DNA of 52,774 bases, from positions 1-52,774 of the IMG/VR virus record IMGVR_UViG_3300025066_000039; one strand, 5' to 3'. The translations under genes were made by a program, and so were the position numbers. This DNA comes from a virus. Its lineage: Duplodnaviria > Caudoviricetes. Below, one piece after another: positions 8,204 to 43,604 of this stretch. The number at the start of each line of letters is the position of its first letter. Within the stretch, counting starts at the first letter, position 1. The notes beneath the pieces were generated by a model that was not told the DNA's origin, made no database searches, and saw only the letters and a program-made list of their open reading frames with translations.

Positions 8204-11200
8204 ATGTATAGCGGTAAATCATGTTGTTGTGACTGTGGGGATAAATTCTGTAAAGGAACTGAATATTTCTATGATGATACCAGTATAGGTTGCCCTATTT
8301 GCGCGGTCGGAATAAGTTCAATGGCCGGTGGTACTTTCGCTTGGCCGGGTGCAGAACCAAAACATAAAATGCCTAATTCCGATCCGTGGGATGGAGATGA
8401 TCTTTTTATAGGAGAACCCTGTTGGTCGTCTGATGTGTGTGAGGATTATCATGAATGCGTTGATGATATGTTCCCCCCACATTATTATCAACTTCTTTCT
8501 CCTATGGGACCTCTTCCTTGGACTCCCCAAGCATTTGAAGATTGGATAGACAATTATCACGGTCCATTAGTTCCAAAGGGCGATTGTACAATGCACTGTA
8601 CAGAAGAAAATATTGGATGTCATAAAATTGCATTTGTTGGTGCATTAGGTTATCAAGATAATATTGATGGTATGGCCCACTTAACCATACCACCTTATCC
8701 TAGTAGTACTGAAAATGTTTATGATAATTGCGAAAATTGGAAATGGATAAGAAATTGGGTTGTTGATGGTGGAAAATTAGTAATCATGATTGATCCAACT
8801 TATGGAAGTTGGACCAATTCGTGGTGTCTTGATCAAGACACTGGAAAGGATTTGGGATGTTGGTTAGACTGTATAGACCACCCCGAAGATTGTTTATGTG
8901 ATTGCGATTGGCCTTCTTCAGACGAAGTTGTTACTGATGTTGTTGAAGAAGATTTTAGGCGGTTTGCTCATTTCTGTGCAACATCAGAGGAAGAATGGCA
9001 GGCAGGATGTAATGCACACGATGAGCAAGGATGCATCGGGGTGCCTATAGGAGATGGTCTCTTTAATATTGTTCCTGAAACTGAATTTTATTATTCAGAA
9101 ATAGTACATTATCAGGATGGTGACGGGAATATTCATGATGACTATATGAATCTTCCTGAAGGTATAACCCTCGACAAGTATATTCCGTGTTGTCAACAAA
9201 CAATTAAGCCGTTTGTTAAAGACGGTGAAGATAGTGGGGGCAATTCAACCGGCGTTGTTCCACTTTCCTTTAGAACTAATGAGGCTGCACCACTTTATCC
9301 TGTCAACGAAGGTGTCGGAATAGTGGGATCGTGTGGTAAATCGGGCCAGGATCCTAACCCATGGTCAAACGCATGCACGGTTGTATATAAACAACACGGT
9401 AAAGGTGCAGTTGTTGTTATTTATGATTACACGGTGTGGGGCACTTATCAAATGAACTCGAATGTTTTCCCACCGAGAGATAATTTTGTTAATGGACTTA
9501 CTGAAGAAGAAAATAAACTAATGGCGTGCAACAACGATTTCTGGACATTTTTGTGTCAAGATTTTTTGCAAGAAGAAGGATATTCGCCTTCTAGTTGTTC
9601 AGAGCCTATCTTTTGGGACAATAAAGGTCCAGATTATGAGGGAAATGAATGTCTACCAAAAGCCGCATGCTGTAAACCAGACGGAACATGTGCTGATTTG
9701 AATGTGTGGGAGTGTGGGGCAATACCGCTGTCAACTTATCATGGTTGGCAATCAAAGAGCGATTGTACTTCCTCATCCACTTGTATTGGTTGTGATGGTG
9801 ATGGGGAAGGGACTTCTTGCAACACTTGTGCAGATATTGGTGGTGGGTGTGAAGAAGCAAAAAAAGGTGCATGTTGTCATTGTGCTGAAGGAAGTTGTCC
9901 AGAATCTCCTGAAGATGATTCATGCCCATTTGGATATTGCGAACAGTTATTTGGAAATATATGTGTAGAGGGCGAAGAGAAATGTTGTTGTGTTGATGGA
10001 CAGTGTATTCCAGAAGATGAAGATTGCGGAGGCATAGACACGGATGTTTGTTGGCCTACAAATGAATGTTCGACACATGAACGATGTATGAGACATGATG
10101 GGAGTGATTCAACTTCGTGGCCGTCGTGCTACAACGATAATTGCTGTGAACTTGTTTGTAGAGGGTGGTATTGGGAAGACCCGGACGGTTTGACGGGCCC
10201 TGAAGGGTGGACGCCACATCACACATATCAAAATATGCCCATTCCAGCTGGAATAGATCCTTCGGAAGAGACCATTGAGATGTTTAGGGTATTATGCGAA
10301 GATGATGGAGTGTGGTTATATGATAATGAGAACGAAATTATCGGAATAACTTGGGATGGGGGAGATGATGTCGCAGGCAATCAAACATATGGCGTCTTGG
10401 AAATGGAATCGTGTAATATGCATGGAACTTTTAATCCTGAATGGGGTGCTGGTTTTGCTCATAAGCATCCTTGGCCGGGATGGCAAGGAACTTATGAAAG
10501 CAGAAGGTGGTCGGGACGAGGTATCGTTTCAACAACCCCATTTCACCCAACGGTGCCTGCTTATACCTGTGGGTATTGGTCCAGTTTGGATAGAACTTGT
10601 AAACCGCCCGAAGAACACCCCGATTGGGATACATTGATACATGGTCATTCAGCAACTGTAAAATGGATAGACGGTGAACAAATCCCATGTAATGGTTACT
10701 ATACAGATGAGAATGATAATATTGTTCTACAGCCTCCATGTGGATATCCGTTGGATTATGCCAACTGGGGATGTGATGGATGTTGCACACCATACGGCAA
10801 TTGTTGTACGGGGACTTGGATGGCCTTTGAACCACTCAATGAAGAAGGAGAATCTCCCCCATATGAAGTTGGTATTGGAAGCACAGCAGACGGGAACTTC
10901 TACAAGGGTGGATGTGGTATAAGAAGACAGTTTGATTGTGATACTTTTCGTGGCAACCTTAATTGGCAAGGTGGCACGGGAGAATATTCATATGGAGAGA
11001 AATGGAGTGTAGAAATAATTGATGGGGTAGAAAGACACTATTACCACCACAAAGCGTACAACCAAGGCAATCCAACACTACCCGGCCTAACATATGATGC
11101 TGTGATGTTCAACGAGTGGCATGGTATTGTTGAAGGTTCTCCAAACTGTGATGATGGAACAAGTTGGCTTCCATACGAAAAACTTGATGATATTATACGA

Positions 11201-14200
11201 GGAGAAGGGGCAACCGGCAGTATTTGTTACTCCTGTGAACAAAATAGTGATTGTGAAGTAGAAGGCGAATGTTGCCATAAACAATTACTCGGCGATGGCT
11301 CGTGGGATTCACTGGGATGTCTGCCCTGTTGGCCAGAGCATCCATATGGTTCGACTGATTGCCAGGCCTTCTCTGGTACAGAGGGTGGCAGTTATTTCGA
11401 CAGAAACCCATACGGATGTCCTTGTTATAATAACAATGATTGTTGTCAGTGTCAAAGCACAGACCCAGACGGTCTTGGAATCACTGGTGCTAATAATTAT
11501 GACCCAGACTGCGATTGCAATTGTAAATGCCAGGCTTCAGATCCATCGGGTGAGAATTATAGTGCGACATGTCGGTGTGAAGGGGAAACTGGAGAGAATA
11601 AACCATACTGCTCGATGATGGTGCCAGACGAATGGGATGTGCCAGGAAATTGGCCTATCAAGTCCGATTTTAAATGTGTTCAATGTTTATCAGATAGTCA
11701 TTGTGATGCAGACCAGTGTTGTGAGCATGGTACTTGTAAAGATCCAGAGGAAGTGTCATGTTTTAGTGATGATGATTGTTGTTTTTTAGCACCATGTTGT
11801 TCCGTGTATCCAACCCCATGTGGTGAAGATGGAGCATCGAACCCTTCAGGCACTTGTTCAGTTTGTCAAGAATGTGATAGAAATGAAGATTGTTTTGATC
11901 ATCACTGTTGCAACGATGGAACATGTGGTACTTGCATTCCTTGTGCGCCGGGTTCTTCGGGCGGATGCCTTCCGGGTAGGGGATGGAATGAACCATGCCA
12001 AGAGGATGAACAATGTGCAGGTGATATGTGTTGCCGTAATAATATAGTTCTTCCAAGTGAAATACATGGTCGATGTTGGGATTGTGAAGGGGTTAATCCA
12101 TATACACAACCTTGTGAGCCATGTGGATTAACAGGTACTTGTTGTGTCAGGGGATTATCGGGCCCCACATCAACGGTGCCATCATGGCGATGTCGCGACG
12201 ATGATGGAGAAGGGTTGAGGTGGTTAGAGTGTCGTAATATGCCAAGTTGGCAACCATTAAATGGAGAATATGCACCATCCGTTGATGATACTGACTATAG
12301 GTGGACTAGCCAAATCGATAGATGTGAAGATGTATTAATTGTTGACATTAATGGAGAACCCATTGAGTACAACTTATGCGGAATGTCAAACAGTGAGTTT
12401 TCTCAAATTCAGTATAAACCAGGACGACTTGATTGGGACGGAGATTGTTTACCTTGTCAATCAAATTGTCCATATGGATTCTTTTGTTCTCAGTTTGGTC
12501 CTACGGGGTCTTATGCTTCTGGTTTAACAGAAGATCCCAGAGTTTGTCGGCCATATGATGATTTTTGTTGGGGGTCTACTGCTGAAGGAATGACGGCCGA
12601 CAGTGCTTGCTCCTCTTGCAACTCAGAAGTTATTCCAGGTAATTATGATTGTGTGCAATGTAGTGGTGAATGGGATTTTGATGATTATGATGGAGTGACT
12701 GGTGATTGTCAACTTGGTTGTTCGACTTCTGGTTATGTAATGATTGATGGAACTACTGGTGCTTGTTGTATTCGTGGATTTAATCATCTACATGCTGGCA
12801 TATGTGAAGATTTAACTTATGATGCATGCCTTGCAAAAGGTATAATAGAAGAAAATTATGGAGAACCTGATATTGCATGGTATGGAATAAACACGAAATG
12901 TGATGATGTTGCTACAGAAGAAGGTAAATTATGTCCAGAAGGATATTGTTGTGATTGTGATACACCTGTACACAATCACCCACAAGAGCCGGAGTTTGGG
13001 TGGGGTTCGGACGGCCACGGACCATTATGGCCTGAATATGGTTGTGACAATAGTTGGATGTGGCATTATGATAGTGGGCACAGTGGTGATCATCCATGGC
13101 GTTTTACACACGATATTTTGTATAAAGTTGATGATGGTGCAATCTGTGGTGAATTTGAAGACGCCGATGATAACGGTTATAAAGCCCCAATTCCAATTGA
13201 ATGTGAATCTTTTTGTTGTGGTGTTGGAGGCGGAGTCTTCGGCTACAAGTATGATGATACTTGCAACAATAATTGGCCAAATATGTGCGAGGATTTGCCC
13301 GACAGCTGGGGAATTCCTGAGTGTTTGTGCGATGACGGCACTTTAAAGGATGGTGCAGTATGTGGCGAAGTTCGATATTGTGGGGATTATGTTTCACCAG
13401 AACATCTCAGTGATATTGCAGAGTGGACTTGTGAATGTGACAATGCAATCATTAAAAATTGGCAAGGGGAAGCCCATGTTATTCGAGAAGATACAATGAA
13501 TTGTTTTTGCCCATTCAATTGCCTTGAAAACAGAGATAATCCATGTGGCGATTGGGTTGGTGGTGGTAATTGCCAGAATGAATGGGCGAATTATAGTTTT
13601 ACTTGTACTGGTGCATGTAGTACCCCTCTTGGTGCATGTTGCCACGGTTCGTCTGAGAGGTCATGTAGTATAATGTCTCAAGCAGATTGTGAAGAATTGT
13701 CGATAGTGGAATGGGAGTATTATGCTCATACATGGCCGTATGAGCAAGATGTCAATAGTTGGCCATCGAATCCAGATACAAGGAACAATCAAATAACATA
13801 TTTCTATGAAGGACTATGGTGTGACCAAATTCCAGAAGGTTCTCCTTGCATGGATTATGCAGAGAAGATTAAATGTCATGAATGCAATCATGATGGTGAT
13901 TGTATACACACACATTCCGATACTTGGAGTTTCAATATTGAAACCCCATCGTGCCGAGAAAATGAATTTGGTATTCGTAAATGTAGTAGTACCATATGGT
14001 GTAATCAGCCTGAGTTAGTGATTGGCTTTGAATGGTGCGCGTCGGCGGGAAATATATGCGAAGAAGGAGAAAAATGTTGTCACGACACGCGGGAATGTGT
14101 TTCAATCGAGGAAGATTGTGACTGTGGACTGTGGTGTCAATTAACTGGGCAAGGATGTTGTGGTTTAAATGGTAAATGTGGAGAATGTGATCCAGACTGT

Positions 14201-16482: not shown

Positions 16483-16485
16483 ATA
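16478..16485 (+). promoter_or_regulatory. T4-type late promoter TATAAATA
   Basis: Perfect consensus 9 nt before the 16495 start. Confidence 0.7.
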
Positions 16486-16494
16486 TAAAGACAC

Positions 16495-17406: not shown

Positions 17407-17419
17407 TGTCTGCTCTCTT

Positions 17420-17427
17420 TATACATA
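17420..17427 (+). promoter_or_regulatory. Late promoter variant TATACATA
   Basis: Intergenic, upstream of gp25; recurrent motif in this window. Confidence 0.65.
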
Positions 17428-17466
17428 CAATAAGAGAAATCGAAACACAACGAAGGATTATGAAAT

Positions 17467-17934: not shown

Positions 17935-17938
17935 TTAA

Positions 17939-33890: not shown

Positions 33891-33904
33891 TAAAGGAACA
33901 ATAG

Positions 33905-35950
33905 ATGCCAGTAATTGGAAGTAGTTCAGTAGTACCACCAGGATCCGTGATGGGACCAAAAGGTCTTCGTGGTTTAACTGGCTCTACTGGTCCGGCAGGT
34001 ACGGGTGGTACGGGTCCAACTGGACCTACAGGTGCAACTGGTGCTTTTGTATTTTCTGGCAGAACCGAAGATGATAATTTAATATTAGTTCTTTCCGATG
34101 GAAAAGAATTTACAATTGAGGGGTTAAAAGGACCAACAGGAGAAGTTGCGGCCGCTGGCGCTATTACTGGAGCTTCTGGAACAAACCCAGTTAGTATATT
34201 TAGAAATATAACAGATGGTATTACATTTTATTTCCGAGGAATAACAGCAGAAGGAACATTAACATCATATCAAACAGATGATTTGATAGGTATCAGTGGT
34301 GATATTATATACAAAGAAGGTGTAACAGCAGATGGAATGATAAGAAATAGATTTTCTTATATTTCGGCCGGAGCATCAGCAGATTCTACTGGATTAACTT
34401 TTGATTCTCTTGGCACAGTTTATTTTTCTGAAACTGGTGGCGCTACTGGTTACTCATATGATCCAGAAGAAATTGTTGTGCGAGTTCCTTCGATGCCACT
34501 TTTTGAAATGGATGGTGTTACGCCAAAAATTTATGGAATAACTGGTGGAGAGCCAAGTGCATGGTATACTGGCCCAACATGTGGTGACGGCGCAGGAATG
34601 ATTATGGATGTAAAGCATGGAAGTGTATTCCGAATTGAAACACCAATAGGAATTCAAGGATTTACTGGAGATTTTTCTAGTAATGAAGTGTTTAACTTTA
34701 CTATGCATCTGGGCGGTTACGACATATGGGATTGGCCAGGTAATATTTATTTTGATGAAAATGAACTGTATTTTTCTTGCGGTTGGGACATCATCAACTT
34801 CTTAACAAATGATGGTGGGAACACATGGAAGGCAAATGTTGCTAATCGTGCATATGGAGTGGATAAATGTTTTGGTTCTATTGGTTTAGGCTCTTGTTGT
34901 CATTTGGATATGGATGAACCACTTGAGTGGCTCGATGACGATTTAGATGTTCGGCCAAGTAGTAAAATACTCTGTATCGATTATATGTCAGAGAATGATT
35001 GTGCCCAACTTTATAGTCCATATGATTTAGATGGAGAACCAACTTTAGGGGGATCATGGAATCAATTTATGCCATGTGGTGAGGGTTGTGGTTTTGATGG
35101 AGATGCATCGGGAGTTTGTTGTAGTGATGGTGGTAATTGGGGAAACTTTGGAAACATGGCAGTTTGTATTGAAAATGTTGGTGCAGATGAATGTAATAAT
35201 TTTGGCGCGACATATTGGACTCATATTTACTATAGAAATGTTGATAATGAGATGAATAGCATACCATCGGAATTAATTGAAGGTGGTCCTGTCCCCATTA
35301 CTTGTGATATGGAAATAGGGGAGTATAGTTATACCCTCAGTGGAGGATGGCCATGTATAAATCCTTGCGAGGGTGGAATTGCATGTTGTAAAGACGGAGA
35401 ATGCATCGGCGATTCGCTTGGTGCTGGAGATACTCATGGTGAAAAACTTCCACCACTAACAGCGGCTGCATGTGAACTTGTTTATGGTGGTATCGCGATT
35501 ATTGGTAAAAGTTGTTCGGATACATCTGTAGATTGTTGTGATGAAACACCATATGTTGGTGCATGTTGTAAAAATGCAAACACTGGAGTTCCTGGTGCAA
35601 GGGAATGCCATGATAATGTATTGCGTAAAGTCTGTTTGGATGATGATTTAAATGTATTCATGGGACCCGGTACGGAATGTACTGGCCATAACGCAGTTGA
35701 TTGTTGCGGTGGGGTAATTGGTGCATGTTGTAATGCGCTTCTGGGTACATGCACACACACAGTTGCGGCAGATTGTCCTTATCCAAATGTGTTTGGTGGT
35801 GAAGGATCAGAATGCACAGATGTTGGTTTTTGTGTTGCTCCACTGGGTGCGTGTTGTTTTGCTGAGGGTGGTTGTGGTGAAAATAAATTTAGTGAGTGCC
35901 AAAATGCTGGTGGCACTTGGAGAGGTCCACATACTCTATGTTGCGAATAA
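33905..35950 (+). CDS. Fibre protein: collagen-like N-terminus, WP..DIINF..DGG.TW domain, GACC repeats
   Basis: MPVIGSS..GPKGLRGLTGSTGPAG; GWDIINFLTNDGGNTWKA; about six xxCC units. Confidence 0.72.
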   Translation: MPVIGSSSVVPPGSVMGPKGLRGLTGSTGPAGTGGTGPTGPTGATGAFVFSGRTEDDNLILVLSDGKEFTIEGLKGPTGEVAAAGAITGASGTNPVSIFRNITDGITFYFRGITAEGTLTSYQTDDLIGISGDIIYKEGVTADGMIRNRFSYISAGASADSTGLTFDSLGTVYFSETGGATGYSYDPEEIVVRVPSMPLFEMDGVTPKIYGITGGEPSAWYTGPTCGDGAGMIMDVKHGSVFRIETPIGIQGFTGDFSSNEVFNFTMHLGGYDIWDWPGNIYFDENELYFSCGWDIINFLTNDGGNTWKANVANRAYGVDKCFGSIGLGSCCHLDMDEPLEWLDDDLDVRPSSKILCIDYMSENDCAQLYSPYDLDGEPTLGGSWNQFMPCGEGCGFDGDASGVCCSDGGNWGNFGNMAVCIENVGADECNNFGATYWTHIYYRNVDNEMNSIPSELIEGGPVPITCDMEIGEYSYTLSGGWPCINPCEGGIACCKDGECIGDSLGAGDTHGEKLPPLTAAACELVYGGIAIIGKSCSDTSVDCCDETPYVGACCKNANTGVPGARECHDNVLRKVCLDDDLNVFMGPGTECTGHNAVDCCGGVIGACCNALLGTCTHTVAADCPYPNVFGGEGSECTDVGFCVAPLGACCFAEGGCGENKFSECQNAGGTWRGPHTLCCE

Positions 35951-35975
35951 TGTTGATTAATGGGAGTATTATATA

Positions 35976-38900
35976 ATGGGTGCTTGCTGTTTTACTGACG
36001 GCTCATGTCTAGATAACCTTTCAACGAGTGTCCAATGTGTGGCAGTTGGTGGTACACCATGGCCCTGTACGCCGGGAGTGGGCACTTGCACCGAGGAATA
36101 CTGGGATACATTTGATTGCTATAGTGTAGTTCCTGGCACTGATGGAACTTGCCCAGCATGTGAGTTTGATTGTCTCGATGTACCAACTGGTGCGTGTTGC
36201 ATAGAAAATAATCACTGCCAGTTGAAGACACATGACGGTTGCAATAACGCGGGAGGTTTATATTGGGGTGACGATACGGATTGCGATACTAATTATCCAT
36301 GGCAAGATATGTGTACCGGCATTGCAAAGTGGGGGGCCTGTTGTTGTCAGTGGTGTAACGGAGCGCAATGCAATCCTTGTGGGGAAGGTGGGGTAGACCT
36401 TTGTGAAAACGAAATGAATTATGCAGATTGTTGGACAAGGGGTAATATACAGTTCAACGATACAGTATGGCATCCGCATTATGGGGTTTGTATAAACGGA
36501 CAATGTGTTGGTGAAGGAATATCATGCGAAACAGATGAAGATTGTGATGATGCGGAATGTTGTAGTGATTCTTCTGGTACATCGTTATGTTGTACTGATT
36601 TTAATTGCGATAGCGGTGGCACTTGTCAATCGGATTGCAATGAATGCCCTGGCTCAAATGTGGGTTACTGTTGTTATATTGACCCTGAGGGAAACAACGA
36701 TAGTTGTGGGGGTTACGGGCCCACGGAGTTTGAATGTACTTCGAGCTGCCCATCGGATGACAGTTGTACATGGACTGCTGACACTTGCGGTGCTTGCGAC
36801 AATATTCCACGCGGAGCATGTTGTCATGGCGATGGTTGCGATAGAAGAACTCAGGCCAACTGCGGCATCATCCTTGGAACTTATGTGGGTGATGATACGG
36901 TTTGTGAGGATGGCCCATGTGACGAAGGTGCATGTTGTTTGGGTGTTAATTCGTTCTGCTACCAAAAATTTAGATTTCAATGTGATTATTATACTGAAAC
37001 TGGTTATGGTTTTTATGAAGGCGAGGGGTGTGACCAACAATGCAATATGGGTGCATGTTGCGGTTATGACGACTCCGAGCCGAACTGTACAGATTCTTAT
37101 ATTATGGATGAGTGTGAAGATGTAGATGGCCACAATGGGACTTTTTATGACTCGATATTGTGTTCGCAATTGGATGAGAACTCTTTATGCGAACAGCAAC
37201 CAATTGGTGCGTGTTGTTTGAATCAGGCACCTTGGTGTTATCCAAACATGATTGCCATCGATTGTGGCGATGCTGGTGGTAGTTGGCAGGGAGAAGGCTC
37301 TTCTTGCAATGCCAATTGTGGCGATGGTAGCAATGTTGTTTGTTGCCAGTCGGGAGAAATGCCCGATGGAACAATAGATGAATGTTTTGCTTGCTTCATG
37401 GTTGACACAGAAGACACATGTACTGATTATTGGCATGGAACACCTGGTAGTGAGTTGGATATATTTACATGTAAAGATGGTGCTTGCTGTTTTGAAGGAA
37501 ACCCGCCATCTTGTATAAGCCTATCATTCGAGAATTGCCTTTTGGTTGATGGAACACCAATAGGGCCGGATGAAGAATGCAACGATTGCGACGCGAGCGG
37601 TTGTGAAATTTGTATGGGATCTTGTTGTTATACTAACAATTATACTCCTATATGTGAGACGACTACTTTGCCAGATTGTGAAACAATTAGCGATGGTGTG
37701 TATACCTTTGGAGGATTTGGAACTAATTGTGATAGTGATCCTTGTGCTGCCCCGGGAGCATGTTGCCATTTGATAGTTGACGCGGGCACTTGCTATGATG
37801 GAAAAAATGAATGGGAGTGTCAGGGTGATCTCGAATTTTTCTATAGTGGCCAAGATTGTAAGGATATAGATTGTGATAACCCAACTGATGGTTCTTGTTG
37901 TTTGGGAGGTATATGCTACCATCATTATAAGTTTTCAGATTGTATTATTGCGGGTGGGTTATTTTTTGGTGATGTTGATGATTGTGATGGGATTGTATGT
38001 GATAATGATAAGTGTTGCCAGAGTATTAGTGGTGTTATAACTTGTAATGATTGGTATGATAATAAATGTAATTGTTTGGATTCTGGTGGAAATATAATTT
38101 CAGATTGTATTTCTCAGGGGATGATAAACTGTGATGATTGTGGAGATGATATTGCTTTTGCATGTTGTTCAAGGGTGGATGGATTGTTTACAGGAAACTG
38201 TGCAGATGCTTTATTTTGTGATGATAATGACTTAGTAATACCTAATAGCTATTGTGCAGACAATCCGTGCGATATTGGTGCGTGTTGTTACCAAGATCCA
38301 ACTACGGGTGAAGATGTTTGTTCAATGACTGTGGATTATGATTGTGATATTAAAGGTGGGATTTTTAACTTAACCGCAGATTGTAATGATTGTCACGATT
38401 GGCCAGTCATGGGTGTCGAGATAGGTTCTTGTTGTTTAGAATTTTCTCCAGGATGTTTAGAAGTTCCAGAGTCGGTTTGTGATAATCTCGGTGGTGATTG
38501 GACTGAAGGGGAGGTTTGTCAACAAAATAATAGTTGTGGGGCAGAGAACTGGGGCGCTTGTTGCCGACTTGTTGAAGAATCGGAAGTTTGTTCTGAAGAA
38601 TCTTCTTTTAATTGCGAGAGTTTGGGGGGTGTTTTCCATCATCATGAAATATGTTCTGCGGAAATTTGTGAATTTGGTGATAATTCTGATACTTGTATTA
38701 CTTGTCCAAATGAAAACTGTGGCGGGGGATGCCCTGATGGATACACCTGTTGCCAACCGTCAAATGTGTGCATGTTGGTTTGTGACGAACCGTGTTTTTG
38801 TATAGAAGAGGGGAGAGAATGTTGCCCAGACGATAGTTGTGAGTTCCCATGTGACGAGGTAGCCTACTGTGGTTTGGGACCGGCTTGTCCAGAGCCTCTG

Positions 38901-39716
38901 GAATGTTGTGAGGGTTCACTGAGTGAGGGCGGTCCAGATGTTTCTGATGATTTTTATTGTGGGTTTCCGTGCAATGCACCGCCCCAATTAGTACTTTGTT
39001 GTACTGCCCCAAATGGTGGTGCAGGTAATCTGCCCTGCGAAACAGATAACACTACTACTATACACGAATGTGGAGTAAAAACTCCAGAAGATTGTGCGGC
39101 TGGTGGCGGAGCGGTAGTATCTGATTGTGGGGTATGCCATGATGTTTGTTGTCCGATTGTGTGTTGTAAGTGTGGTATTGGACCGGGGTGTGTATATCCG
39201 GGTGGTGATTGCAGTTCGGAAGCGCAGTGTTGGCCAGTGGTTGTGGGGTATGCTCATGATGGAGATTGCGGTAACTGGACTGATCCTGGTGGTTGTGGCG
39301 GGTGTGATTGCGCGCCTTGTGCTTCTAGTAATTTAACTTGCGATGACTCTTGCTTGTCAATGGATTGTGATTGTGGTTGTCATATCTGCGTGTCCAGTCT
39401 CAGGGGTGAAGGCCAGTGTCAGTGCGATGATGTGGATGGTGACGGAACTCATGATTGTGATTGTTGTTGTTGTTGTGATTGCGATAGTGGTGTCGATTGT
39501 TGCGGGTGGGATGGCCCCTGCGAAATACTCCATAGTGCTTGCGATTTCGATTGCGGATCGACAGGTCTGAGAAGCATAGATCCACCATCAACTGATGAAA
39601 TTTTAACAAATCTTGCTGATACCCATACTTATGTTCGATTGCCTAATGGGGAATGTATCTATATGGAATGTGTTGGACCAGGTTGCCCGTATCCTGTTTG
39701 TAAGGAGGATATATAA
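35976..39716 (+). CDS. Cys-rich GACC tandem-repeat protein (1246 aa) with C-terminal LPNGxC motif
   Basis: Begins MGACC; about 11 exact GACC plus GSCC/GYCC variants; ends YVRLPNGECIYMEC...CPYPVC. Confidence 0.8.
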   Translation: MGACCFTDGSCLDNLSTSVQCVAVGGTPWPCTPGVGTCTEEYWDTFDCYSVVPGTDGTCPACEFDCLDVPTGACCIENNHCQLKTHDGCNNAGGLYWGDDTDCDTNYPWQDMCTGIAKWGACCCQWCNGAQCNPCGEGGVDLCENEMNYADCWTRGNIQFNDTVWHPHYGVCINGQCVGEGISCETDEDCDDAECCSDSSGTSLCCTDFNCDSGGTCQSDCNECPGSNVGYCCYIDPEGNNDSCGGYGPTEFECTSSCPSDDSCTWTADTCGACDNIPRGACCHGDGCDRRTQANCGIILGTYVGDDTVCEDGPCDEGACCLGVNSFCYQKFRFQCDYYTETGYGFYEGEGCDQQCNMGACCGYDDSEPNCTDSYIMDECEDVDGHNGTFYDSILCSQLDENSLCEQQPIGACCLNQAPWCYPNMIAIDCGDAGGSWQGEGSSCNANCGDGSNVVCCQSGEMPDGTIDECFACFMVDTEDTCTDYWHGTPGSELDIFTCKDGACCFEGNPPSCISLSFENCLLVDGTPIGPDEECNDCDASGCEICMGSCCYTNNYTPICETTTLPDCETISDGVYTFGGFGTNCDSDPCAAPGACCHLIVDAGTCYDGKNEWECQGDLEFFYSGQDCKDIDCDNPTDGSCCLGGICYHHYKFSDCIIAGGLFFGDVDDCDGIVCDNDKCCQSISGVITCNDWYDNKCNCLDSGGNIISDCISQGMINCDDCGDDIAFACCSRVDGLFTGNCADALFCDDNDLVIPNSYCADNPCDIGACCYQDPTTGEDVCSMTVDYDCDIKGGIFNLTADCNDCHDWPVMGVEIGSCCLEFSPGCLEVPESVCDNLGGDWTEGEVCQQNNSCGAENWGACCRLVEESEVCSEESSFNCESLGGVFHHHEICSAEICEFGDNSDTCITCPNENCGGGCPDGYTCCQPSNVCMLVCDEPCFCIEEGRECCPDDSCEFPCDEVAYCGLGPACPEPLECCEGSLSEGGPDVSDDFYCGFPCNAPPQLVLCCTAPNGGAGNLPCETDNTTTIHECGVKTPEDCAAGGGAVVSDCGVCHDVCCPIVCCKCGIGPGCVYPGGDCSSEAQCWPVVVGYAHDGDCGNWTDPGGCGGCDCAPCASSNLTCDDSCLSMDCDCGCHICVSSLRGEGQCQCDDVDGDGTHDCDCCCCCDCDSGVDCCGWDGPCEILHSACDFDCGSTGLRSIDPPSTDEILTNLADTHTYVRLPNGECIYMECVGPGCPYPVCKEDI
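36485..36545 (+). repeat. Dispersed repeat copy B (shared with 15694-15751)
   Basis: Identical to copy A except for a 3-nt insertion and one T/C substitution. Confidence 0.9.
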
Positions 39717-41842
39717 TGGCAATATTTAATTGGTTCAATGAACCCTTATCGGATGGAGATGCGTGGTATATCCCAGAAAGACATGACCTTTTTAAGTATG
39801 ATGGCAACACACCCTCGCGAAGAAATCCTGAGTTTTTTACACACAGACCAACTAGCGGTTCGCCAAACTATAACTTTGATTATCGAATGCCATCTTTTTC
39901 GTGTATATCTACATCAAGCAGGGCAACAAATCAAATTCCAAATGGGGGATGTAGCTCGTGTCCCGATGGATGCTTACAGGACGACCCGTTTGGAGGAAAC
40001 CCATATTCAGGTTGCGCGAGTCAATGCCGATATGTAGCAATAACCCCAGTGCATATTATTGCAAGCGCCCACTATTGGGCAACACCGTGGACACTCGGCT
40101 CCACCAGAAAATTTTATGGAACTGACGGTACATCTTTTCAAGAAATTAAATTTACAGAATTGCATGAGTTGGGGGACTGGTGGTGCGATAATGATGGGGA
40201 TTGTGTTGGTGATGAGCCTCCTGGAGAGTTGGCTATATTAGAATTTAAGGCTGCTGGACAGAACGTGAATCCTACAAATGACAATGAATACAATACTTCG
40301 TTAGGTGACAGGTATCTTGCACCAGATGTAGAAATAAAATATCCATATTTTATGCCTGAGGTTATGGGTCCTTATGACCCAATCATAGAGTACATGAAAG
40401 AACAATATGTCGGAATTAACTTTGACCAAGACTTGAGAGGTTATGTGGTGGGATTGGATCCATATTTTAACAGCCAAGCTGGGTTCTATCCAAGGAAGAC
40501 GGACTTTAAAGTAGGTCATCGGTACTGTGATAACTCCTCTGGATCTAATAGTCTCCAATACTTAATAGACAGGCAACTCGCAATAAGAGAAGATATGGCC
40601 ACCTTTTATATGACGCAGGGAGAGTCATCGACACCATTCTTTACATACAATCCAAACATTACTGGAGATTCTCCTATTTTCTTAGGTCTTTGGGAATCAC
40701 GCAATTTTACAAATATGGTACAAGATTATGTCTTACCCATCATAGAACAGTATGATATTGATAATGGCACATCATACGCAATAGATTTATCAGATAGAAT
40801 ACTGACAAGGAATCAATTAGGTATACCAGAAGTTGGTGGTTGTTGTGTTCCCACATATCCAGATGTTGAAGGTTGTGACGGGTGCTACGGTGCGTGTTGC
40901 CACCCTTCCTTTGGTTGCGCCAATCTTGATTTTGCCTCATGCAACAATATAGGTGGACAATTCCAAGGAGATAGCACGGTGTGTGCAGACTTAGTGTGCG
41001 AGGAGGTGGTGGAATGTTGGCAGACTTCCTCAGATGTTTGCCAGGAGTTGAATGGAATTTATCGTGACGATGGAAGTTCTTGCTATAATCCGTGGGCATG
41101 TCCTGACCCTGAAGTCGAAGGCGCTTGTTGTTATCTAGGCGATAGTTGTGGCCAAGAAACGCAATATGATTGTGAAAATCAATATGGAACATATAAAGGA
41201 AATTTTGTTGAGTGTTTTGCTGATAATCGATGCCCAAATATTATTGGCGCGTGTTGCGATGGAGAATTAACTTGCCTCGGCGAGTATACAGAGTACAACT
41301 GTATGGTGAATCAGGGTGGAACACATTGGGTGTCGAGTGCAGAATGCGGCGACACATTACCTTGTAATCAGGGTGCGTGTTGCTTTGGAACTTTCTGCCC
41401 CCCGGGTCAGACATCCCAAACGGACTGCATAAATCAGGGTGGAATATATAAAGGATATGGCACAACTTGCACTGTTGACCTGTGTGCTGAAGATGTTGGT
41501 GCTTGTTGTGTTGGAAACAATTGCATTGGTGTCTATACAGAATCAGAATGCGGAAGTGTGGGTGGAACATATAAAGGAGTCGGCACAACTTGCACTACAG
41601 GAATATGTAGTAGTGGTGGGTGTGTATCTTGTTCGAGTCAAGAAGAAAGATCCTCAATGAATCGATTGAAATTACATCCAAACGGAGTTAAACCCTATTA
41701 TAACAACAAAAGAGCAAACAACTATGAAATTGAAATGCTCGATCCGGGTGAACAACAATACACAAATGTTCAATTGCCTAATGGGGACTGTATATTGATG
41801 GATTGTCGCTTGAATTGCCCCTATCCGTTATGTATGGAATGA
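39716..41842 (+). CDS. Trypsin-like protease-fold domain plus GACC repeats plus C-terminal LPNGxC motif
   Basis: AITPVHIIASAHY, ELAILEF and QGESSTPFF in the order of the chymotrypsin-clan H/D/S motifs; five GACC; ends VQLPNGDCILMDC..CPYPLC. Confidence 0.65.
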   Translation: MAIFNWFNEPLSDGDAWYIPERHDLFKYDGNTPSRRNPEFFTHRPTSGSPNYNFDYRMPSFSCISTSSRATNQIPNGGCSSCPDGCLQDDPFGGNPYSGCASQCRYVAITPVHIIASAHYWATPWTLGSTRKFYGTDGTSFQEIKFTELHELGDWWCDNDGDCVGDEPPGELAILEFKAAGQNVNPTNDNEYNTSLGDRYLAPDVEIKYPYFMPEVMGPYDPIIEYMKEQYVGINFDQDLRGYVVGLDPYFNSQAGFYPRKTDFKVGHRYCDNSSGSNSLQYLIDRQLAIREDMATFYMTQGESSTPFFTYNPNITGDSPIFLGLWESRNFTNMVQDYVLPIIEQYDIDNGTSYAIDLSDRILTRNQLGIPEVGGCCVPTYPDVEGCDGCYGACCHPSFGCANLDFASCNNIGGQFQGDSTVCADLVCEEVVECWQTSSDVCQELNGIYRDDGSSCYNPWACPDPEVEGACCYLGDSCGQETQYDCENQYGTYKGNFVECFADNRCPNIIGACCDGELTCLGEYTEYNCMVNQGGTHWVSSAECGDTLPCNQGACCFGTFCPPGQTSQTDCINQGGIYKGYGTTCTVDLCAEDVGACCVGNNCIGVYTESECGSVGGTYKGVGTTCTTGICSSGGCVSCSSQEERSSMNRLKLHPNGVKPYYNNKRANNYEIEMLDPGEQQYTNVQLPNGDCILMDCRLNCPYPLCME

Positions 41843-41852
41843 TATATAGTAT

Positions 41853-43604
41853 ATGAGTATTCAATTTAGATCTAGAATAAGAACGGCCGTTGATATTAAA
41901 GACGATATATTTTCTGGATTTGGTGTTTGTTGTTTACCCGATGGAACAAAGTCGGAAACACTAATATCGTTTTATGATTGTATTGATAGTAATGGGTATT
42001 GGCAATATGCAGAAAATCTTGGAGATATTGAATGCCCACCATTGTCTGATACGGGATGTTGTTGTTCGTGTAGTAATCTTGATAATCATGATGATTATTT
42101 AAATTCTATTAATGACAATTGGATTCCTGAATATGTGGGCGGATTAAAAGAACTAACACAATGTCAATGTAATGATATAGGTGGGATATGGTCACCAGAG
42201 GAATGTGATGCCTTTACAGGCGGTGATATCTTCGACTATAATGTTGAAAGAGTTTATAATTTTTGTACGAATGGTGCCGCGCAGGCACCAGGAATTTCGC
42301 CCCATGATGTACTCACTAAGTGGGATGTTAGGTATCCTAATAGTTGTTGTGTGCATATAGGTGATGGTAATTATGCAGATTGTAGAAATGTGTGCAATGG
42401 CCAACAATGTGCAGATTTTAATGAATGTAATTGTATAGGGGATTGTAATAATTGTGTGGGATATTATAATGTATACGGCATCGGTGCAGATGGAGGAGGC
42501 CTGGCATGTGATGATCCAGTTAATCCAGAGAATGCTATGGATTGTAGTGATGAGAATCAGCAAACCGCTGAAGCACAGGGAGGGAGTGGCCAAGAAAGTA
42601 GGTTTGATAATATGTTAATACAAAACAATACAATTAATTCCGAAGAAAATTTTATTAAAAGATATAATCAAACAATGAAACAGGCCGGATTGGGTATTGT
42701 GTCTGCATGTGTTGAAAATATTAATCGAAATGAATACAGTTGTAAATTATCTTCTATAGAATTTTGTCATGGATACTTTATGGGATTGCAGGAAGGTGGT
42801 TCTCCTTATAATTGCGGCCACACTGAAGAAATTGATATGATAAAAACCTTTCTAAAAGATGGAACAATTTCTAGAAGTATTATAGATTCTTGGCAAGAAG
42901 GAGAGTATAGAATTGCAGGCAGATATGCTGGAATATTTAACGGAAGTGGAGTTCATTCTGATATTGAAGTTCTGGGGCGTTCAAAAACTGGTATCGTTAA
43001 ATCGTCTGCAATTATAGAAGAAGAAAATAATGATTTTAAATCGTTTACCAAGAACCAATATGCAGTTATTATCCCAGAAACTGATTATGGTATAAGTCCC
43101 TTACACGAAGGTAGTATGGCCTCGTTAAAGATTAATAAAAGAAAAAAATCAAAGTCAGATAGTGCATGGAATATGAAATTACCATTAAATTTGTTTGAAC
43201 GAATTAGAAATAGTTTTTCTACCAATGGAATAGGTAAAGGATTTAACTGGGTAGTGCCAAGTAAAACCTTATTGGCATTTATGATGACAAAAACCCAAAA
43301 AAGAAATGATGGGGAGATATGGAGTGAAGAATTTAATGTGAATGCTTATGATTCGGTTGATGTTAAGAATCTCGATATTACTAGGGGCTCATCCGGCGTA
43401 TTTCACGAAATGAAAGGAACATATTGGTCATCTACACTTGTCGAGGGAACAACATCCACCAAACCTCTTGCGTATGCACATAAAAGAGAAAATACCAACA
43501 TAGAATCATTAAACACAAGCATATGGGCATCAGATATTATATTTGCCTCTGAACTTGACAAAACACATAGAATACGATTGGCTCTTTTAGTAAGAATTGT
43601 ATAA
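41853..43604 (+). CDS. Cys-rich protein with C-terminal DUF1566/CLec-like domain
   Basis: Cys-rich N-terminal half; GEYRIAGRYAG..WVVPSK..YWSSTL..LAY..HRIRLALLV. Confidence 0.65.
   Translation: MSIQFRSRIRTAVDIKDDIFSGFGVCCLPDGTKSETLISFYDCIDSNGYWQYAENLGDIECPPLSDTGCCCSCSNLDNHDDYLNSINDNWIPEYVGGLKELTQCQCNDIGGIWSPEECDAFTGGDIFDYNVERVYNFCTNGAAQAPGISPHDVLTKWDVRYPNSCCVHIGDGNYADCRNVCNGQQCADFNECNCIGDCNNCVGYYNVYGIGADGGGLACDDPVNPENAMDCSDENQQTAEAQGGSGQESRFDNMLIQNNTINSEENFIKRYNQTMKQAGLGIVSACVENINRNEYSCKLSSIEFCHGYFMGLQEGGSPYNCGHTEEIDMIKTFLKDGTISRSIIDSWQEGEYRIAGRYAGIFNGSGVHSDIEVLGRSKTGIVKSSAIIEEENNDFKSFTKNQYAVIIPETDYGISPLHEGSMASLKINKRKKSKSDSAWNMKLPLNLFERIRNSFSTNGIGKGFNWVVPSKTLLAFMMTKTQKRNDGEIWSEEFNVNAYDSVDVKNLDITRGSSGVFHEMKGTYWSSTLVEGTTSTKPLAYAHKRENTNIESLNTSIWASDIIFASELDKTHRIRLALLVRIV

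What the first reader, a model, noticed from the sequence alone, without database searches (positions are those of the whole stretch)
8204..43604. A modular cysteine-rich (GACC/CxxDxDC) appendage system on a T4-like virion
Seen: seven ORFs (8204-16018 and the six in 27907-43604; about 24 kb) lie among baseplate and neck genes and are co-oriented with them. They are wholly or partly built from acidic Cys-dense repeats (GACC-x-C-x-C-x-GG.(Y/W).G-x-C and CxxDxDC). They fall into three classes: collagen-anchored fibres, a pure repeat extender starting MGACC, and repeat stalks carrying different heads (two CLec-like, one trypsin-like, one GATase-like). None has an evident signal peptide. Established: tailed-phage virions assemble in a reducing cytoplasm, and T4 structural proteins are Cys-poor. 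Inference: this is a branched adhesion/penetration apparatus stabilised by disulfides or Zn/Ca. It would need metal loading, post-lysis oxidation or a phage-encoded thiol oxidase, and it may exchange disulfides with the host surface. I know of no characterised equivalent.
Basis: partly seen in the sequence, partly recalled or inferred. Interest (0 to 1): 0.92.

Follow-up and report, generated by a model that had tools for sequence, protein, structure and literature searches.

The report
Cysteine-rich repeat fibres of marine phage
An uncultured marine T4-like phage appears to build its host-recognition fibres from strings of a tiny six-cysteine domain otherwise found in secreted bacterial proteins, which raises the question of how a virus assembled inside a cell gets such domains folded.

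Summary
The seven ORFs exist as described and are unusually Cys-rich (3.3-15.7%, against 0-3.6% in the other 25 ORFs). They lie co-oriented among T4-like baseplate, neck, terminase, sheath and portal genes. Six of them (27907-43604) share a ~38-residue six-Cys unit (GACC...C...C...GG-x-aromatic-x-G...C...C). P0001 (8204-16018) has none; it carries a different, minor Cys module.

The unit is not phage-specific. A profile of it finds 8,698 representative proteins. The named ones are all from Planctomycetota/Phycisphaerae or Ca. Eisenbacteria, most top hits have signal-peptide-like N-termini, and no Pfam or NCBIfam model covers it.

One unit folds confidently (pLDDT 90.7). By both fold and sequence profile, its only PDB counterpart is a sub-module of the disulfide-stapled extracellular iRhom homology domain.

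Among phages, the unit occurs in 20 of 80 related uncultured marine T4-like loci. It was not found in 50,697 deposited phage genomes by tblastn, nor in five nearest isolates by profile.

Head-domain claims: trypsin-like is moderately supported. One CLec-like (Lcl_C) head is only a lead and the other is unsupported. GATase-like is unsupported.

Best reading: a fast-evolving host-recognition fibre cluster with disulfide-type bead stalks. Virion location, redox state and host remain untested.

The parts
8204..16018 (+). P0001: giant (2604 aa) Cys-rich protein (10.8% Cys) between gp5-like and gp25-like baseplate genes. It has no GACC unit and is not homologous to the other six.
   Evidence: The G001 orthologue (2745 aa) conserves 276 of 282 Cys at 67% non-Cys identity.
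11234..12088 (+). First cluster of the minor C-x2-[DN]-x-[DE]-C...CC...C-x-C module in P0001 (aa ~1011-1295).
   Evidence: 8 HMM copies in P0001; regex 7 observed against a shuffled mean of 0.1
15512..15913 (+). Second cluster of the same module, holding most strict CxxDxDC instances (aa ~2437-2570).
27907..31026 (+). P0002: Gly-X-Y N-anchor, then a Cys-free shaft, then a Cys-rich stalk with 3 GACC units (aa 418-598), then a Cys-poor C-terminal head (aa ~611-1039).
   Evidence: Head: Atlas lead to DUF1566/Lcl_C at 0.93-0.94, but no Pfam or PDB sequence hit.
31026..33890 (+). P0003: Gly-X-Y N-anchor (10 triplets) and shaft, then a Cys-rich C-terminal 650 aa with 4 GACC units and a Cys-dense end.
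   Evidence: (phrog_5073 tail fiber, E 1.4e-6)
33905..35950 (+). P0004: Gly-X-Y N-anchor and shaft, then a Cys-rich stalk with 3 GACC units that runs to the stop codon.
35976..39716 (+). P0005: all-Cys-rich protein (15.7% Cys). It has 12 GACC units in aa 1-899, then a denser CxC/CxxC/CC region (aa 900-1195), then a C-terminal four-Cys cap (39567-39713). It has its own GGGAG site and ATG.
   Evidence: Four metagenomic relatives at 43-78% identity.
39716..40870 (+). P0006 N-terminal head (aa 1-385), chymotrypsin-fold-like, with invariant His119 and Gly302-x-Ser304.
   Evidence: Fold searches on a low-confidence model are dominated by PA-clan proteases. No Pfam or PDB sequence hit.
40886..41608 (+). 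P0006 stalk: six tandem GACC units (aa 391-631). Unit 1 (40886-41002) is the unit that was folded.
   Evidence: pLDDT 90.7
41693..41839 (+). P0006 C-terminal cap (LPNG-x-C-I-x-M-x-C...CPYP-x-C). It is shared with P0005 and with the 2615-aa protein of G002.
41853..43604 (+). P0007: Cys-rich N-terminal ~300 aa with one degenerate GACC unit (aa 24-51), then a Cys-free C-terminal head of unknown fold.
   Evidence: Its head is unrelated to the P0002 head.

Best explanation
ORFs 27907-43604 are the host-recognition (tail-fibre or baseplate-appendage) cluster of an uncultured marine T4-like myovirus. The cluster is assembled from interchangeable modules:
(i) a paralogous N-terminal Gly-X-Y anchor and shaft that would attach three of the proteins to the baseplate as trimers;
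(ii) stalks made of tandem ~38-residue six-Cys 'GACC' mini-domains (beta-hairpin, short helix, beta-strand);
(iii) different distal heads: a probably active chymotrypsin-fold serine-protease-like domain on P0006, a possible Lcl_C-type lectin-like domain on P0002, and an unknown head on P0007;

The GACC unit belongs to a very large, uncurated family of extracellular repeats of Planctomycetota/Phycisphaerae and Ca. Eisenbacteria. It most likely carries three intradomain disulfides. That would make rigid, protease-resistant bead-on-a-string spacers once the virion is in oxic seawater. P0001 is a separate giant Cys-rich protein encoded among the baseplate hub genes.

SHOWN: the genes, their composition, the repeat family and its size, synteny and modular turnover, strong selection on Cys, a confident unit fold, and the iRhom-domain match.
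INFERRED: virion location, trimeric attachment, disulfide rather than metal chemistry, when oxidation happens, and the adhesin and protease roles.
For: POSITION.
- The ORFs are co-oriented between baseplate wedge and fibre genes and the neck genes.
- In the related pelagi- and cyanomyophages, the stretch between VrlC and neck gene gp14 is the hypervariable host recognition cluster that holds the tail fibres (PMC7029224, passages). I did not identify a VrlC homologue in the window.
- The N-termini of P0003 and P0004 hit PHROG tail-fibre families (E 1.4e-6 and 1.7e-4).

REPEAT FAMILY.
- The bacteria-only HMM detects the units; shuffles give none.
- Phage and planctomycete unit profiles match at hhalign probability 98.5%, E 1.8e-15.
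- The profile finds 8,698 representative proteins at E<=1e-3 and 995 at E<=1e-30.
- All 27 source-named proteins among the 120 listed are Planctomycetota-type (20) or Ca. Eisenbacteria (7) MAG proteins. 26 of the 120 carry precomputed Pfam partner domains, including dockerin PF00404 and DUF7901, whose names come.

DISULFIDE READING.
- 110 of 152 top bacterial hits look signal-peptide-bearing.
- All six Cys are present in 1,975 of 1,985 complete units.
- The unit contains no CxxC pair or conserved His.
- The AF2 unit model has pLDDT 90.7.
- The best structural match is iRhom2 residues 568-607: Z 4.1, rmsd 1.9 A, all 39 residues; iRhom1 matches at TMq 0.76.
- Both the phage profile (E 6e-4 to 1.7e-3) and an independent planctomycete profile (E 0.005-0.24) hit only iRhom1/2 in the whole PDB sequence set, with all six Cys aligned.
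- That domain is extracellular and 'stapled by 8 disulfide bonds' (PMC11248996, passages). All 16 of its Cys are paired (PMC10148629, passages).

SELECTION AND MODULARITY.
- Cys are 93-100% conserved against G001 where non-Cys identity is 59-90%. For the three proteins with full-length G002 orthologues (P0002, P0003, P0007), Cys are 85-92% conserved against G002 where non-Cys identity is 36-53%.
- Neck, portal and terminase proteins are ~94% identical to G001, but P0005 is 60%.
- G001 has a different protein in the slot of P0006. G002 has one 2615-aa anchor-plus-repeat-plus-cap protein.
- The P0006 head also occurs alone (P0023) or on a non-Cys tail (P0024).

PRECEDENT. Functional disulfides occur in phages Pam3 and Milano, where DTT releases fibres or permits contraction (PMC9942802 and PMC10811340, passages).
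Against: - No virion proteome exists, and no isolate carries these genes. tblastn of three of the proteins against 50,697 phage records found nothing. Five nearest isolates have 0 units. Virion membership therefore rests on gene position only.
- The proteins have no signal peptides and would be made in a reducing cytoplasm. A 38-residue domain with six Cys is unlikely to be stable when reduced.
- No DsbA was found in five related contigs. Only a sub-threshold thioredoxin-fold ORF was found, in a distant relative.
- The iRhom match is weak in absolute terms (Foldseek E about 2, Z 4.1; profile E 6e-4 to 0.24). It covers one sub-module, not the whole domain.
- I could not see model coordinates, so Cys pairing was not measured.
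- The non-GACC Cys-dense stretches (P0005 aa 900-1195, the P0003 C-terminus, P0001) are rich in CxxC, CxC and CC, and P0001 has 69 His. That pattern would also suit metal clusters.
- The P0006 fold model is poor (mean pLDDT 44.3). The catalytic Asp was not assigned.
Confidence: 0.6

Rival explanations
1. Metal-cluster fibres. The cysteines, at least those in the densest non-GACC regions and possibly those of the GACC unit too, coordinate Zn, Fe, Cu or Cd rather than forming disulfides. The proteins could then fold in the reducing cytoplasm.
For: The proteins have no signal peptides and would assemble in the cytoplasm. P0005 has 20 CxxC and 13 CxC. P0001 has 35 CxxC, 22 CxC and 69 His. Runs of CC and CxC at the P0001 N-terminus and the P0003 and P0005 C-termini look metallothionein-like by eye. 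No DsbA-type oxidase was found in relatives.
Against: The GACC unit has no CxxC pair and no conserved His. Its relatives are mostly secreted. Its only PDB counterpart is a disulfide-stapled extracellular domain. The lower-ranked fold matches are Kazal-type disulfide mini-domains plus one de novo mini-protein, not zinc fingers.
Confidence: 0.2
2. Not virion parts. Some or all of these proteins are non-structural products of the hypervariable island, released at lysis. Examples would be the protease-headed P0006 or giant P0001 acting as soluble adhesins, decoys or surface-modifying enzymes.
For: Pelagimyophage host recognition clusters also hold genes unrelated to fibres (PMC7029224, passages). 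P0005, P0006, P0007 and P0001 lack the Gly-X-Y anchor. P0001 is not homologous to the rest.
Against: The genes are tightly packed, co-oriented and partly overlapping inside the structural operon. Synteny is conserved in G001, G002 and G004. Stalk units and the cap are shared with the anchored proteins. In G002, anchor, repeats and cap lie in one polypeptide.
Confidence: 0.15
3. Artefact. The ORFs are spurious long frames, an assembly chimera with bacterial DNA, or decaying pseudogenes.
For: The source is a metagenomic contig. The repeat is otherwise bacterial. GC is slightly raised in these ORFs (40-44% against 32-37% nearby).
Against: Orthologues occur in independent contigs with 85-100% Cys conservation. 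Units occur in 20 of 80 related viral loci at the same relative position. There are no internal stops. Cys codon usage is phage-like AT-rich (TGT 539, TGC 170), and GC is 38% against 67-70% in a planctomycete carrier.
Confidence: 0.02

Closest known systems
Uncurated six-Cys 'GACC' tandem repeat of secreted proteins of Planctomycetota/Phycisphaerae and Ca. Eisenbacteria (all annotated as hypothetical proteins)
   Same: Same unit: the six-Cys spacing, G2, the GG-x-aromatic-x-G core, and tandem arrays. Bacterial HMMs detect the phage units, and the profiles match at probability 98.5%.
   Different: The bacterial proteins mostly have signal peptides (110 of 152 by heuristic) and extracellular partner domains such as dockerin and DUF7901 (names; accession list). 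They come from 67-70% GC genomes. The phage proteins have no signal peptide, sit in a virion gene module, and are AT-rich.
iRhom homology domain (IRHD) of animal iRhom1/2 (PDB 8SNL, 9XY4, 9Q7Y, 9O58)
   Same: One ~36-residue segment (iRhom2 571-606) aligns to all six Cys and the G-aromatic position of the unit profile. It superposes on the unit model at 1.9 A over 39 residues. The domain is extracellular and disulfide-stapled.
   Different: The IRHD is a single ~200-residue, 16-Cys domain inserted between TMD1 and TMD2 of a rhomboid-like membrane protein, not a tandem array. Scores are marginal. Whether this reflects homology or convergence is not settled.
Host recognition cluster fibres of pelagimyophages and cyanomyophages (e.g. 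HTVC008M)
   Same: A hypervariable stretch ahead of the neck genes that holds fibres, some with collagen-type repeats and carbohydrate-binding heads (PMC7029224, passages). The window's ORFs sit directly upstream of the neck genes. The portal is ~50% identical.
   Different: The 13 HTVC008M baseplate and fibre proteins examined have 0-1.6% Cys and no units. Whole genomes of five isolates have 0 units.
Disulfide-linked virion parts of phages Pam3 and Milano
   Same: Both are cytoplasmically assembled myophages whose baseplate, fibres or sheath carry functional disulfides. DTT detaches fibres or permits contraction.
   Different: Those cases involve a few inter-subunit bonds between ordinary domains. 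Here, dozens of intradomain Cys-knot mini-domains make up whole proteins.
Legionella collagen-like adhesin Lcl (collagen repeats plus an Lcl_C/DUF1566 head)
   Same: P0002 has Gly-X-Y repeats at one end and a head with an Atlas lead to Lcl_C at the other. P0003 and P0004 have weak NCBIfam adhesin_Lcl hits on their collagen part.
   Different: Pfam PF07603 does not hit, even at E<=10. The collagen run is only 6 triplets. A GACC stalk lies in between.
Cnidarian minicollagens (recalled from memory, from no call)
   Same: Short collagen helices flanked by small six-Cys domains whose disulfides give a tough extracellular structure.
   Different: Different Cys pattern, eukaryotic secretory pathway, and no sequence relationship was tested.

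Membership tests
GACC six-Cys extracellular repeat family (uncurated) | Six Cys at fixed spacing (CC-x5-7-C-x7-9-C-x~13-C-x4-C) with G before CC and a GG-x-aromatic-x-G core | tested here: met
   Invariant C4, C5, C11, C19, C33 (and C38) in 41 and 49 phage units. The same columns are 98.5-99.7% Cys (sixth 82%) in ~2,600 bacterial units.
GACC six-Cys extracellular repeat family (uncurated) | Significant match to a profile built from bacterial members only | tested here: met
   24 units at i-E<0.01 in P0002-P0006, none in shuffles. hhalign probability 98.5%. P0001 is not met: 0 units.
GACC six-Cys extracellular repeat family (uncurated) | Export signal (most bacterial members) | tested here: not met
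   0 of 7 window proteins against 110 of 152 bacterial top hits, by a crude heuristic of my own.
T4-like tail fibre / host recognition cluster protein | Gene position between baseplate wedge genes and neck genes, co-oriented | tested here: met
   Same relative position in G001, G002 and G004. Slot defined in PMC7029224.
T4-like tail fibre / host recognition cluster protein | Sequence similarity to known fibre proteins | tested here: inconclusive
   Only the N-termini of P0003 and P0004 hit PHROG tail-fibre families (E 1.4e-6 to 5e-4). Nothing for P0001, P0002, P0005, P0006 or P0007.
T4-like tail fibre / host recognition cluster protein | Presence in purified virions | not testable with these tools
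   No isolate or proteome is available.
Collagen triple helix repeat (PF01391) | Score over Pfam's gathering cut-off on Gly-X-Y repeats | tested here: not met
   16.7-20 bits against a cut-off of 27.2. The runs are 6, 10 and 7 triplets. They are collagen-like, but not Pfam members.
Chymotrypsin-fold (PA clan) serine protease (P0006 head) | His and Ser of the triad in TAAHC-like and G-D-S-G-like motifs, in His...Ser order | tested here: met
   Invariant H119 and G302-x-S304 in 8 of 8 family members. The motif reads GDSGS in 4 of the 8. Naming the motifs and the triad order is from my own knowledge.
Chymotrypsin-fold (PA clan) serine protease (P0006 head) | Catalytic Asp and the two-barrel fold | tested here: inconclusive
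   Asp was not assigned. The model has mean pLDDT 44.3. PA-clan proteases dominate both fold searches, but weakly (Foldseek E>=0.034; Z<=5.0, rmsd ~5 A). No Pfam or PDB sequence hit.
Lcl_C / DUF1566 C-type-lectin-like head (P0002, P0007) | Match to PF07603 or to a solved member | tested here: inconclusive
   P0002: Atlas clusters at 0.93-0.94 with 158-165 shared features, below the tool's 170 benchmark. No Pfam hit at E<=10 and no PDB sequence hit. P0007: no Pfam hit, and its head is unrelated to the P0002 head.
Class-I glutamine amidotransferase-like (P0001 N-terminus) | Match to a GATase/ThuA-type family | tested here: inconclusive
   Only Atlas ranks 11-12 (0.89-0.90), and the tool flags the family as probably wrong. 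No Pfam hit at E<=10.
iRhom homology domain | Whole ~16-Cys domain between TMD1 and TMD2 of a rhomboid-like protein | tested here: not met
   Only one ~36-residue sub-module, plus a partial second one, aligns. The phage proteins have no membrane-protein context. The relation is resemblance or sub-domain kinship, not membership.
Zinc-ribbon / metallothionein-type metal site | Paired CxxC or Cys/His ligand sets in the repeat unit | tested here: not met
   There is no CxxC or conserved His in the unit consensus. The Cys-dense non-GACC regions do have CxxC and CxC and were not tested further.

The most novel reading that the evidence does not exclude
A lineage of uncultured marine T4-like phages makes virion fibres out of obligately disulfide-bonded, extracellular-type mini-domains (up to 15.7% Cys). 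That would imply a still-unknown oxidative-folding step: a phage-controlled redox shift, a thioredoxin-fold helper, or metal-templated folding followed by oxidation after lysis. It could also imply redox-gated adsorption of the kind seen in Pam3 and Milano. The same mini-domain would be the prokaryotic and viral counterpart of a sub-module of the animal iRhom homology domain, whose fold was described in 2024 as unprecedented.
Probability: 0.3. Interest if true: 0.85.

Novelty: new variant of a known kind. Interest (0 to 1): 0.62.

Why it matters
If these proteins are on the virion and disulfide-bonded, they are the most Cys-rich phage structural proteins I could find any trace of. They would pose a concrete, testable question: how does a cytoplasmically assembled virus fold dozens of extracellular-type Cys-knot domains?

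They also define a repeat family of at least 8,698 protein clusters that has no Pfam or NCBIfam model, so a curated model could annotate thousands of 'hypothetical' surface proteins.

They give a first outside relative for part of the iRhom homology domain.

They mark a recognisable group of marine myoviruses (units in 20 of 80 related loci) with no cultured member, for which fibre-borne protease and lectin-like heads suggest proteinaceous or glycan receptors.

Tried and rejected
FAMILY LIBRARIES.
- Pfam, NCBIfam and PHROGs scans of the seven whole proteins found nothing on the Cys-rich parts.
- Pfam at E<=10 on the head domains and N-terminal regions gave nothing beyond sub-threshold collagen and a chance WRW hit.
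- Pfam and NCBIfam at E<=10 on the isolated arrays, phage and planctomycete, gave only chance hits at E 0.22 and 9.5.
- Pfam on four bacterial carriers showed only dockerin and DUF7901 outside the repeats.

PHAGE COLLECTIONS.
- tblastn of P0005, P0006 and P0002 against 50,697 phage records found no match. BLAST's low-complexity filter was on.
- The search for related loci with P0005 in IMG/VR found no pattern match. Relatives were found through gp6 instead.

PDB SEQUENCE SEARCHES.
- Single-sequence searches with the P0002 head, the P0006 head, P0019 and P0005 gave 0 hits.
- Profile searches with the P0006 family (A2) and the P0002 head (A7) gave 0 hits.

STRUCTURE.
- Full-length P0006 gave mean pLDDT 44.3. 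I used it only with caution.
- The BFVD fold search with the unit model gave nothing meaningful (best E 2.1).

OTHER ANALYSES.
- Cys co-loss analysis to infer disulfide partners failed, because 1,975 of 1,985 units keep all six Cys.
- Redox helpers in G001-G005: Erv1/ALR none, but the control rang in 0 of 14 genomes, so this is uninformative. DsbA none, with the control ringing in 9 of 14. Thioredoxin and glutaredoxin gave one shared sub-threshold ORF in G004 (14 bits).
- psbA/psbD: 0 of 5 contigs. This is a weak hint against a cyanobacterial host.
- The phylum survey found units in only 4 of 151 sampled genomes, so 'Planctomycetota-wide' was rejected in favour of 'patchy'.
- A planctomycete host was considered and judged unlikely on GC (38% against 67-70%).
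- P0004 and P0005 as one broken gene was rejected. They are in different frames, P0005 has its own GGGAG site and ATG, and they are also separate in G001.
- My first reading of the fold hit as ADAM17 was wrong. The matched chains are iRhom2 and iRhom1.

LITERATURE.
- Searches that found no description of Cys-rich repeat fibres in phages, of this repeat, or of an IRHD relative in bacteria or phages. These were listings only, except the six papers whose passages I read.
- The supplementary files of the Pam3, pelagimyophage and iRhom papers were not seen. The iRhom supplements or figures may give the disulfide connectivity that I lack.

TOOLS NOT USED.

Full report
WHAT IS THERE. The window is the whole record held for this genome, a 52.8 kb virus contig. 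All seven ORFs of the finding exist on the + strand at the stated coordinates (translations). They encode 7,815 residues with 709 Cys codons. Cys content is 10.8% (P0001), 3.3% (P0002), 7.9% (P0003), 6.2% (P0004), 15.7% (P0005), 7.5% (P0006) and 4.6% (P0007). The other 25 ORFs examined have 0-3.6%. The surrounding genes are a T4-like structural module: baseplate wedge genes (gp53-, gp25- and gp6-like), a tail-fibre gene, neck gp13/gp14, gp15, both terminase subunits, sheath and portal, plus a T4 baseplate protein. The portal is only ~50% identical to those of cyanomyoviruses and Pelagibacter phage HTVC008M. This is therefore a divergent marine member of that group.

ARCHITECTURE. P0002, P0003 and P0004 each start with about 300 Cys-free residues. 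These open with a paralogous N-terminal segment (37-40% identity) holding 6, 10 and 7 Gly-X-Y triplets. This is collagen-like but below Pfam's cut-off. P0003 and P0004 also give weak PHROG tail-fibre hits. Cys-rich stalks follow. P0005 is Cys-rich from its first residues to its end, and it has its own GGGAG site and ATG in a different frame from P0004. P0006 has an N-terminal 385-residue head, then six tandem units, then a four-Cys C-terminal cap that it shares with P0005. P0007 has a Cys-rich N-terminal half and a Cys-free C-terminal head. P0001 is Cys-rich along its whole length but shares no detectable module with the other six.

THE MAIN REPEAT. The first homologue search gave four close metagenomic relatives of P0005, plus weak hits in MAG proteins of Ca. 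Eisenbacteria and Phycisphaerae. Those proteins turned out to be long tandem arrays of the same unit. An HMM built only from 34 bacterial units finds 3, 3, 2, 10 and 6 units (i-E<0.01) in P0002-P0006. It finds none at that threshold in the other 27 ORFs and none in 160 shuffled proteins. With a combined model the counts are 3, 4, 3, 12, 6 and 1 for P0002-P0007, and 0 for P0001. In 49 phage units all six Cys are invariant. In about 2,600 units from the top 152 hits, the first five Cys columns are 98.5-99.7% Cys and the sixth is 82%. 1,975 of 1,985 complete units have all six. Phage and planctomycete unit profiles match at hhalign probability 98.5%. No Pfam or NCBIfam model touches the arrays, even at E<=10, in phage or planctomycete proteins.

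HOW COMMON IT IS. A profile of 41 phage units, searched against 1.84 billion representative proteins, finds 8,698 proteins at E<=1e-3, 4,219 at E<=1e-10 and 995 at E<=1e-30, with up to 39 units per protein. Of the 120 best hits of the word-indexed search, 27 carry a source name. All 27 are MAG proteins: 20 from Phycisphaerae, Phycisphaerales, Planctomycetota or Planctomycetia, and 7 from Ca. Eisenbacteria. 26 of the 120 have precomputed Pfam partner domains. These include dockerin PF00404 and DUF7901, whose names come; the names of the other accessions I know only from memory. By a crude heuristic, 110 of 152 top hits have signal-peptide-like N-termini, against 0 of the 7 window proteins. One 4.2 Mb planctomycete genome holds 75 units in about 20 ORFs. 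Even so, only 4 of 151 evenly sampled genomes of its phylum have any at E<=1e-4, so the family is patchy.

AMONG PHAGES. Of 80 IMG/VR loci with a gp6 relative, 20 carry units, in 26 ORFs, mostly 8-10 kb downstream of gp6 as in the window. Several of these loci are near-duplicates of each other. Four of five longer relatives have 3-15 units, including G004 (157 kb, estimated 87% complete) with 11 units in ORFs of 1017-2056 aa. By contrast, tblastn of P0005, P0006 and P0002 finds nothing in 50,697 deposited phage records. The whole genomes of HTVC008M and four cyanomyoviruses have 0 units with the same profile. The 13 syntenic baseplate and fibre proteins of HTVC008M have 0-1.6% Cys.

EVOLUTION. 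G001 and G002 are syntenic with the window. Neck, portal and terminase proteins are ~94% identical to G001, but P0005 is 60% and P0001 is 65%. G001 has a different 551-aa Cys-rich protein in the slot of P0006. G002 has a single 2615-aa protein with the Gly-X-Y anchor, 9 units and the same C-terminal cap, in place of P0004, P0005 and P0006. Cysteines are conserved far more strongly than the rest: 93-100% against 59-90% (G001), and, for the three proteins with full-length G002 orthologues (P0002, P0003, P0007), 85-92% against 36-53% (G002). Only 79 of P0001's 282 Cys are matched in its much shorter G002 orthologue, 176 of them falling opposite gaps. These are real genes under selection, with the turnover expected of host-recognition proteins. 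The pelagimyophage paper (passages) describes the stretch between VrlC and neck gene gp14 as the hypervariable host recognition cluster holding the tail fibres. The word 'cysteine' does not occur in its main text.

FOLD OF THE UNIT. One P0006 unit, folded with the 49-unit alignment, gives mean pLDDT 90.7 (all five models 88-91). It has strands at 2-6 and 10-14, a helix at 16-21 and a strand at 25-29. Foldseek against PDB gives only two rows, at E 2-3, TMq 0.76, rmsd 2.0 A and 24-26% identity. The exhaustive VIA search puts 8snl_B residues 568-607 first (Z 4.1, rmsd 1.9 A, all 39 residues). Kazal-type inhibitors and a de novo mini-protein follow at Z 2.0-2.3. I first misread the entry titles as ADAM17. 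The sequence search shows the chains are iRhom2 and iRhom1. The phage unit profile hits only four distinct PDB sequences at E<=10. All four are iRhom1/2 (E 6e-4 to 1.7e-3), with all six Cys and the G-aromatic position aligned and a partial second unit upstream. An independent profile of 30 units from one planctomycete genome again hits only those four sequences, at the same segment (E 0.005-0.24). The segment lies in the extracellular iRhom homology domain. [quoted passage not shown] PMC10148629 (passages) states that all 16 of its Cys are paired. The scores are marginal and only one sub-module is covered. I treat this as good support for a disulfide-type mini-domain, and as a lead, not proof, for homology.

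HEADS. The P0006 head has seven marine relatives at 45-78% identity. Their alignment shows an invariant His119 in an A-H-Y context and an invariant Gly302-x-Ser304, which reads G-D-S-G-S in four of the eight members. The head occurs alone (P0023) or on a non-Cys tail (P0024). The full-length model is poor (pLDDT 44.3). Even so, both fold searches over residues ~57-363 are dominated by chymotrypsin-fold proteases, weakly (E>=0.034; Z<=5.0). Pfam and PDB sequence searches find nothing. 'Trypsin-like' is moderately supported. For P0002, the Atlas points to DUF1566/Lcl_C clusters (0.93-0.94, below the tool's shared-feature benchmark), with no Pfam or PDB sequence hit. That is a lead only. The P0007 head is unrelated to it and remains unassigned. 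The 'GATase-like' label for the P0001 N-terminus rests on Atlas ranks 11-12 only, and the tool flags the family as probably wrong.

SECOND MOTIF. Strict CxxDxDC occurs 4 times in P0001 (shuffled mean 0.24; 0 of 500 shuffles reach 4) and once each in P0005 and P0006. It belongs to a ~28-residue module with 8 HMM copies in P0001 and 3 in its G001 orthologue. None was found in the bacterial top hits or in the other viral loci. The module is real but covers under a tenth of P0001.

REDOX QUESTION. No DsbA was found in G001-G005 (controls rang in 9 of 14 genomes). The Erv1/ALR search was uninformative. One 174-aa thioredoxin-fold ORF with a CGWC motif lies in G004, far from the fibre genes, and scores below both family cut-offs. 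The window itself holds only structural genes. Pam3 and Milano show that myophage virions can carry functional disulfides whose reduction detaches fibres or permits contraction (passages). Those are a few inter-subunit bonds, not Cys-knot arrays. When and how the cysteines here would be oxidised remains the open point. The CxxC-, CxC- and His-rich regions outside the GACC units keep a metal-binding reading alive for those parts.

HOST. There are no tRNAs in the window. No psbA/psbD was found in five related contigs. The window is 38% GC, against 67-70% for the planctomycete carrier, and phage Cys codons are mostly TGT. Any acquisition from bacteria is therefore old, and a high-GC planctomycete host is unlikely. 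The host is unknown.

VERDICT. It overreaches on P0001, on most head labels, and on branching and disulfide exchange. The repeat is not without relatives: it belongs to a very large, uncurated bacterial extracellular repeat family and resembles part of the iRhom homology domain. I found no description of any of this in the literature searches made.

Noticed in passing
window 6005-8188 and 16495-17406: The two ORFs match successive parts of one PHROG 'tail protein' family (phrog_350, positions 167-326 and 349-431 of 436). P0001 and a 158-aa ORF lie between them, as if a baseplate gene had been split or duplicated around the giant Cys-rich gene.
   Followed up: no
window 3445-3882 (-): A 145-aa ORF with a TnsA-like endonuclease N-terminal domain (PF08722, E 1.7e-19) sits among the baseplate genes. 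It is probably a mobile or homing-type endonuclease.
   Followed up: no
window 404-1924 (-): A 506-aa Cys-free, Gly-rich (14%) and acidic (17.6% D+E) ORF with no Pfam family.
   Followed up: no
window 16495-17406 and 43668-44174: Two small conserved ORFs that flank the Cys-rich genes are mildly Cys-enriched (3.3% and 3.6%). They are 80% and 91% identical in G001 and could be partners or adaptors.
   Followed up: no
window 31026 and 39716: The stop of P0002 overlaps the start of P0003 by one base, and the same holds for P0005 and P0006. This suggests translational coupling within the cluster.
   Followed up: no
L093:1201-1725 (-) (G004, about 141.9 kb): A 174-aa thioredoxin-fold ORF with a CGWC motif and a Gln/Met-rich tail, in the 87%-complete GACC-bearing relative. 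It scores below the Pfam thioredoxin and glutaredoxin cut-offs, at about 14 bits. It is a candidate redox helper, or an ordinary NrdC-type protein.
   Followed up: partly
G002 contig (L090-L092), 2615-aa ORF: One polypeptide combines the Gly-X-Y anchor, 9 GACC units and the C-terminal cap, which are spread over P0004, P0005 and P0006 in the window. This is evidence that the pieces can work in a single chain.
   Followed up: partly
PDB chains 8snl_B, 9o58_B, 9xy4_A, 9q7y_A (iRhom2/iRhom1): A sub-module of the animal iRhom homology domain matches the bacterial and phage unit by profile and by predicted fold. The domain was published as structurally unprecedented. No paper linking the two was found.
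   Followed up: partly
P0024 (1155 aa, marine metagenome): The protease-like head of P0006 also occurs fused to a long non-Cys C-terminal region, and alone in P0023 (409 aa). The head is therefore an independent mobile module.
   Followed up: no
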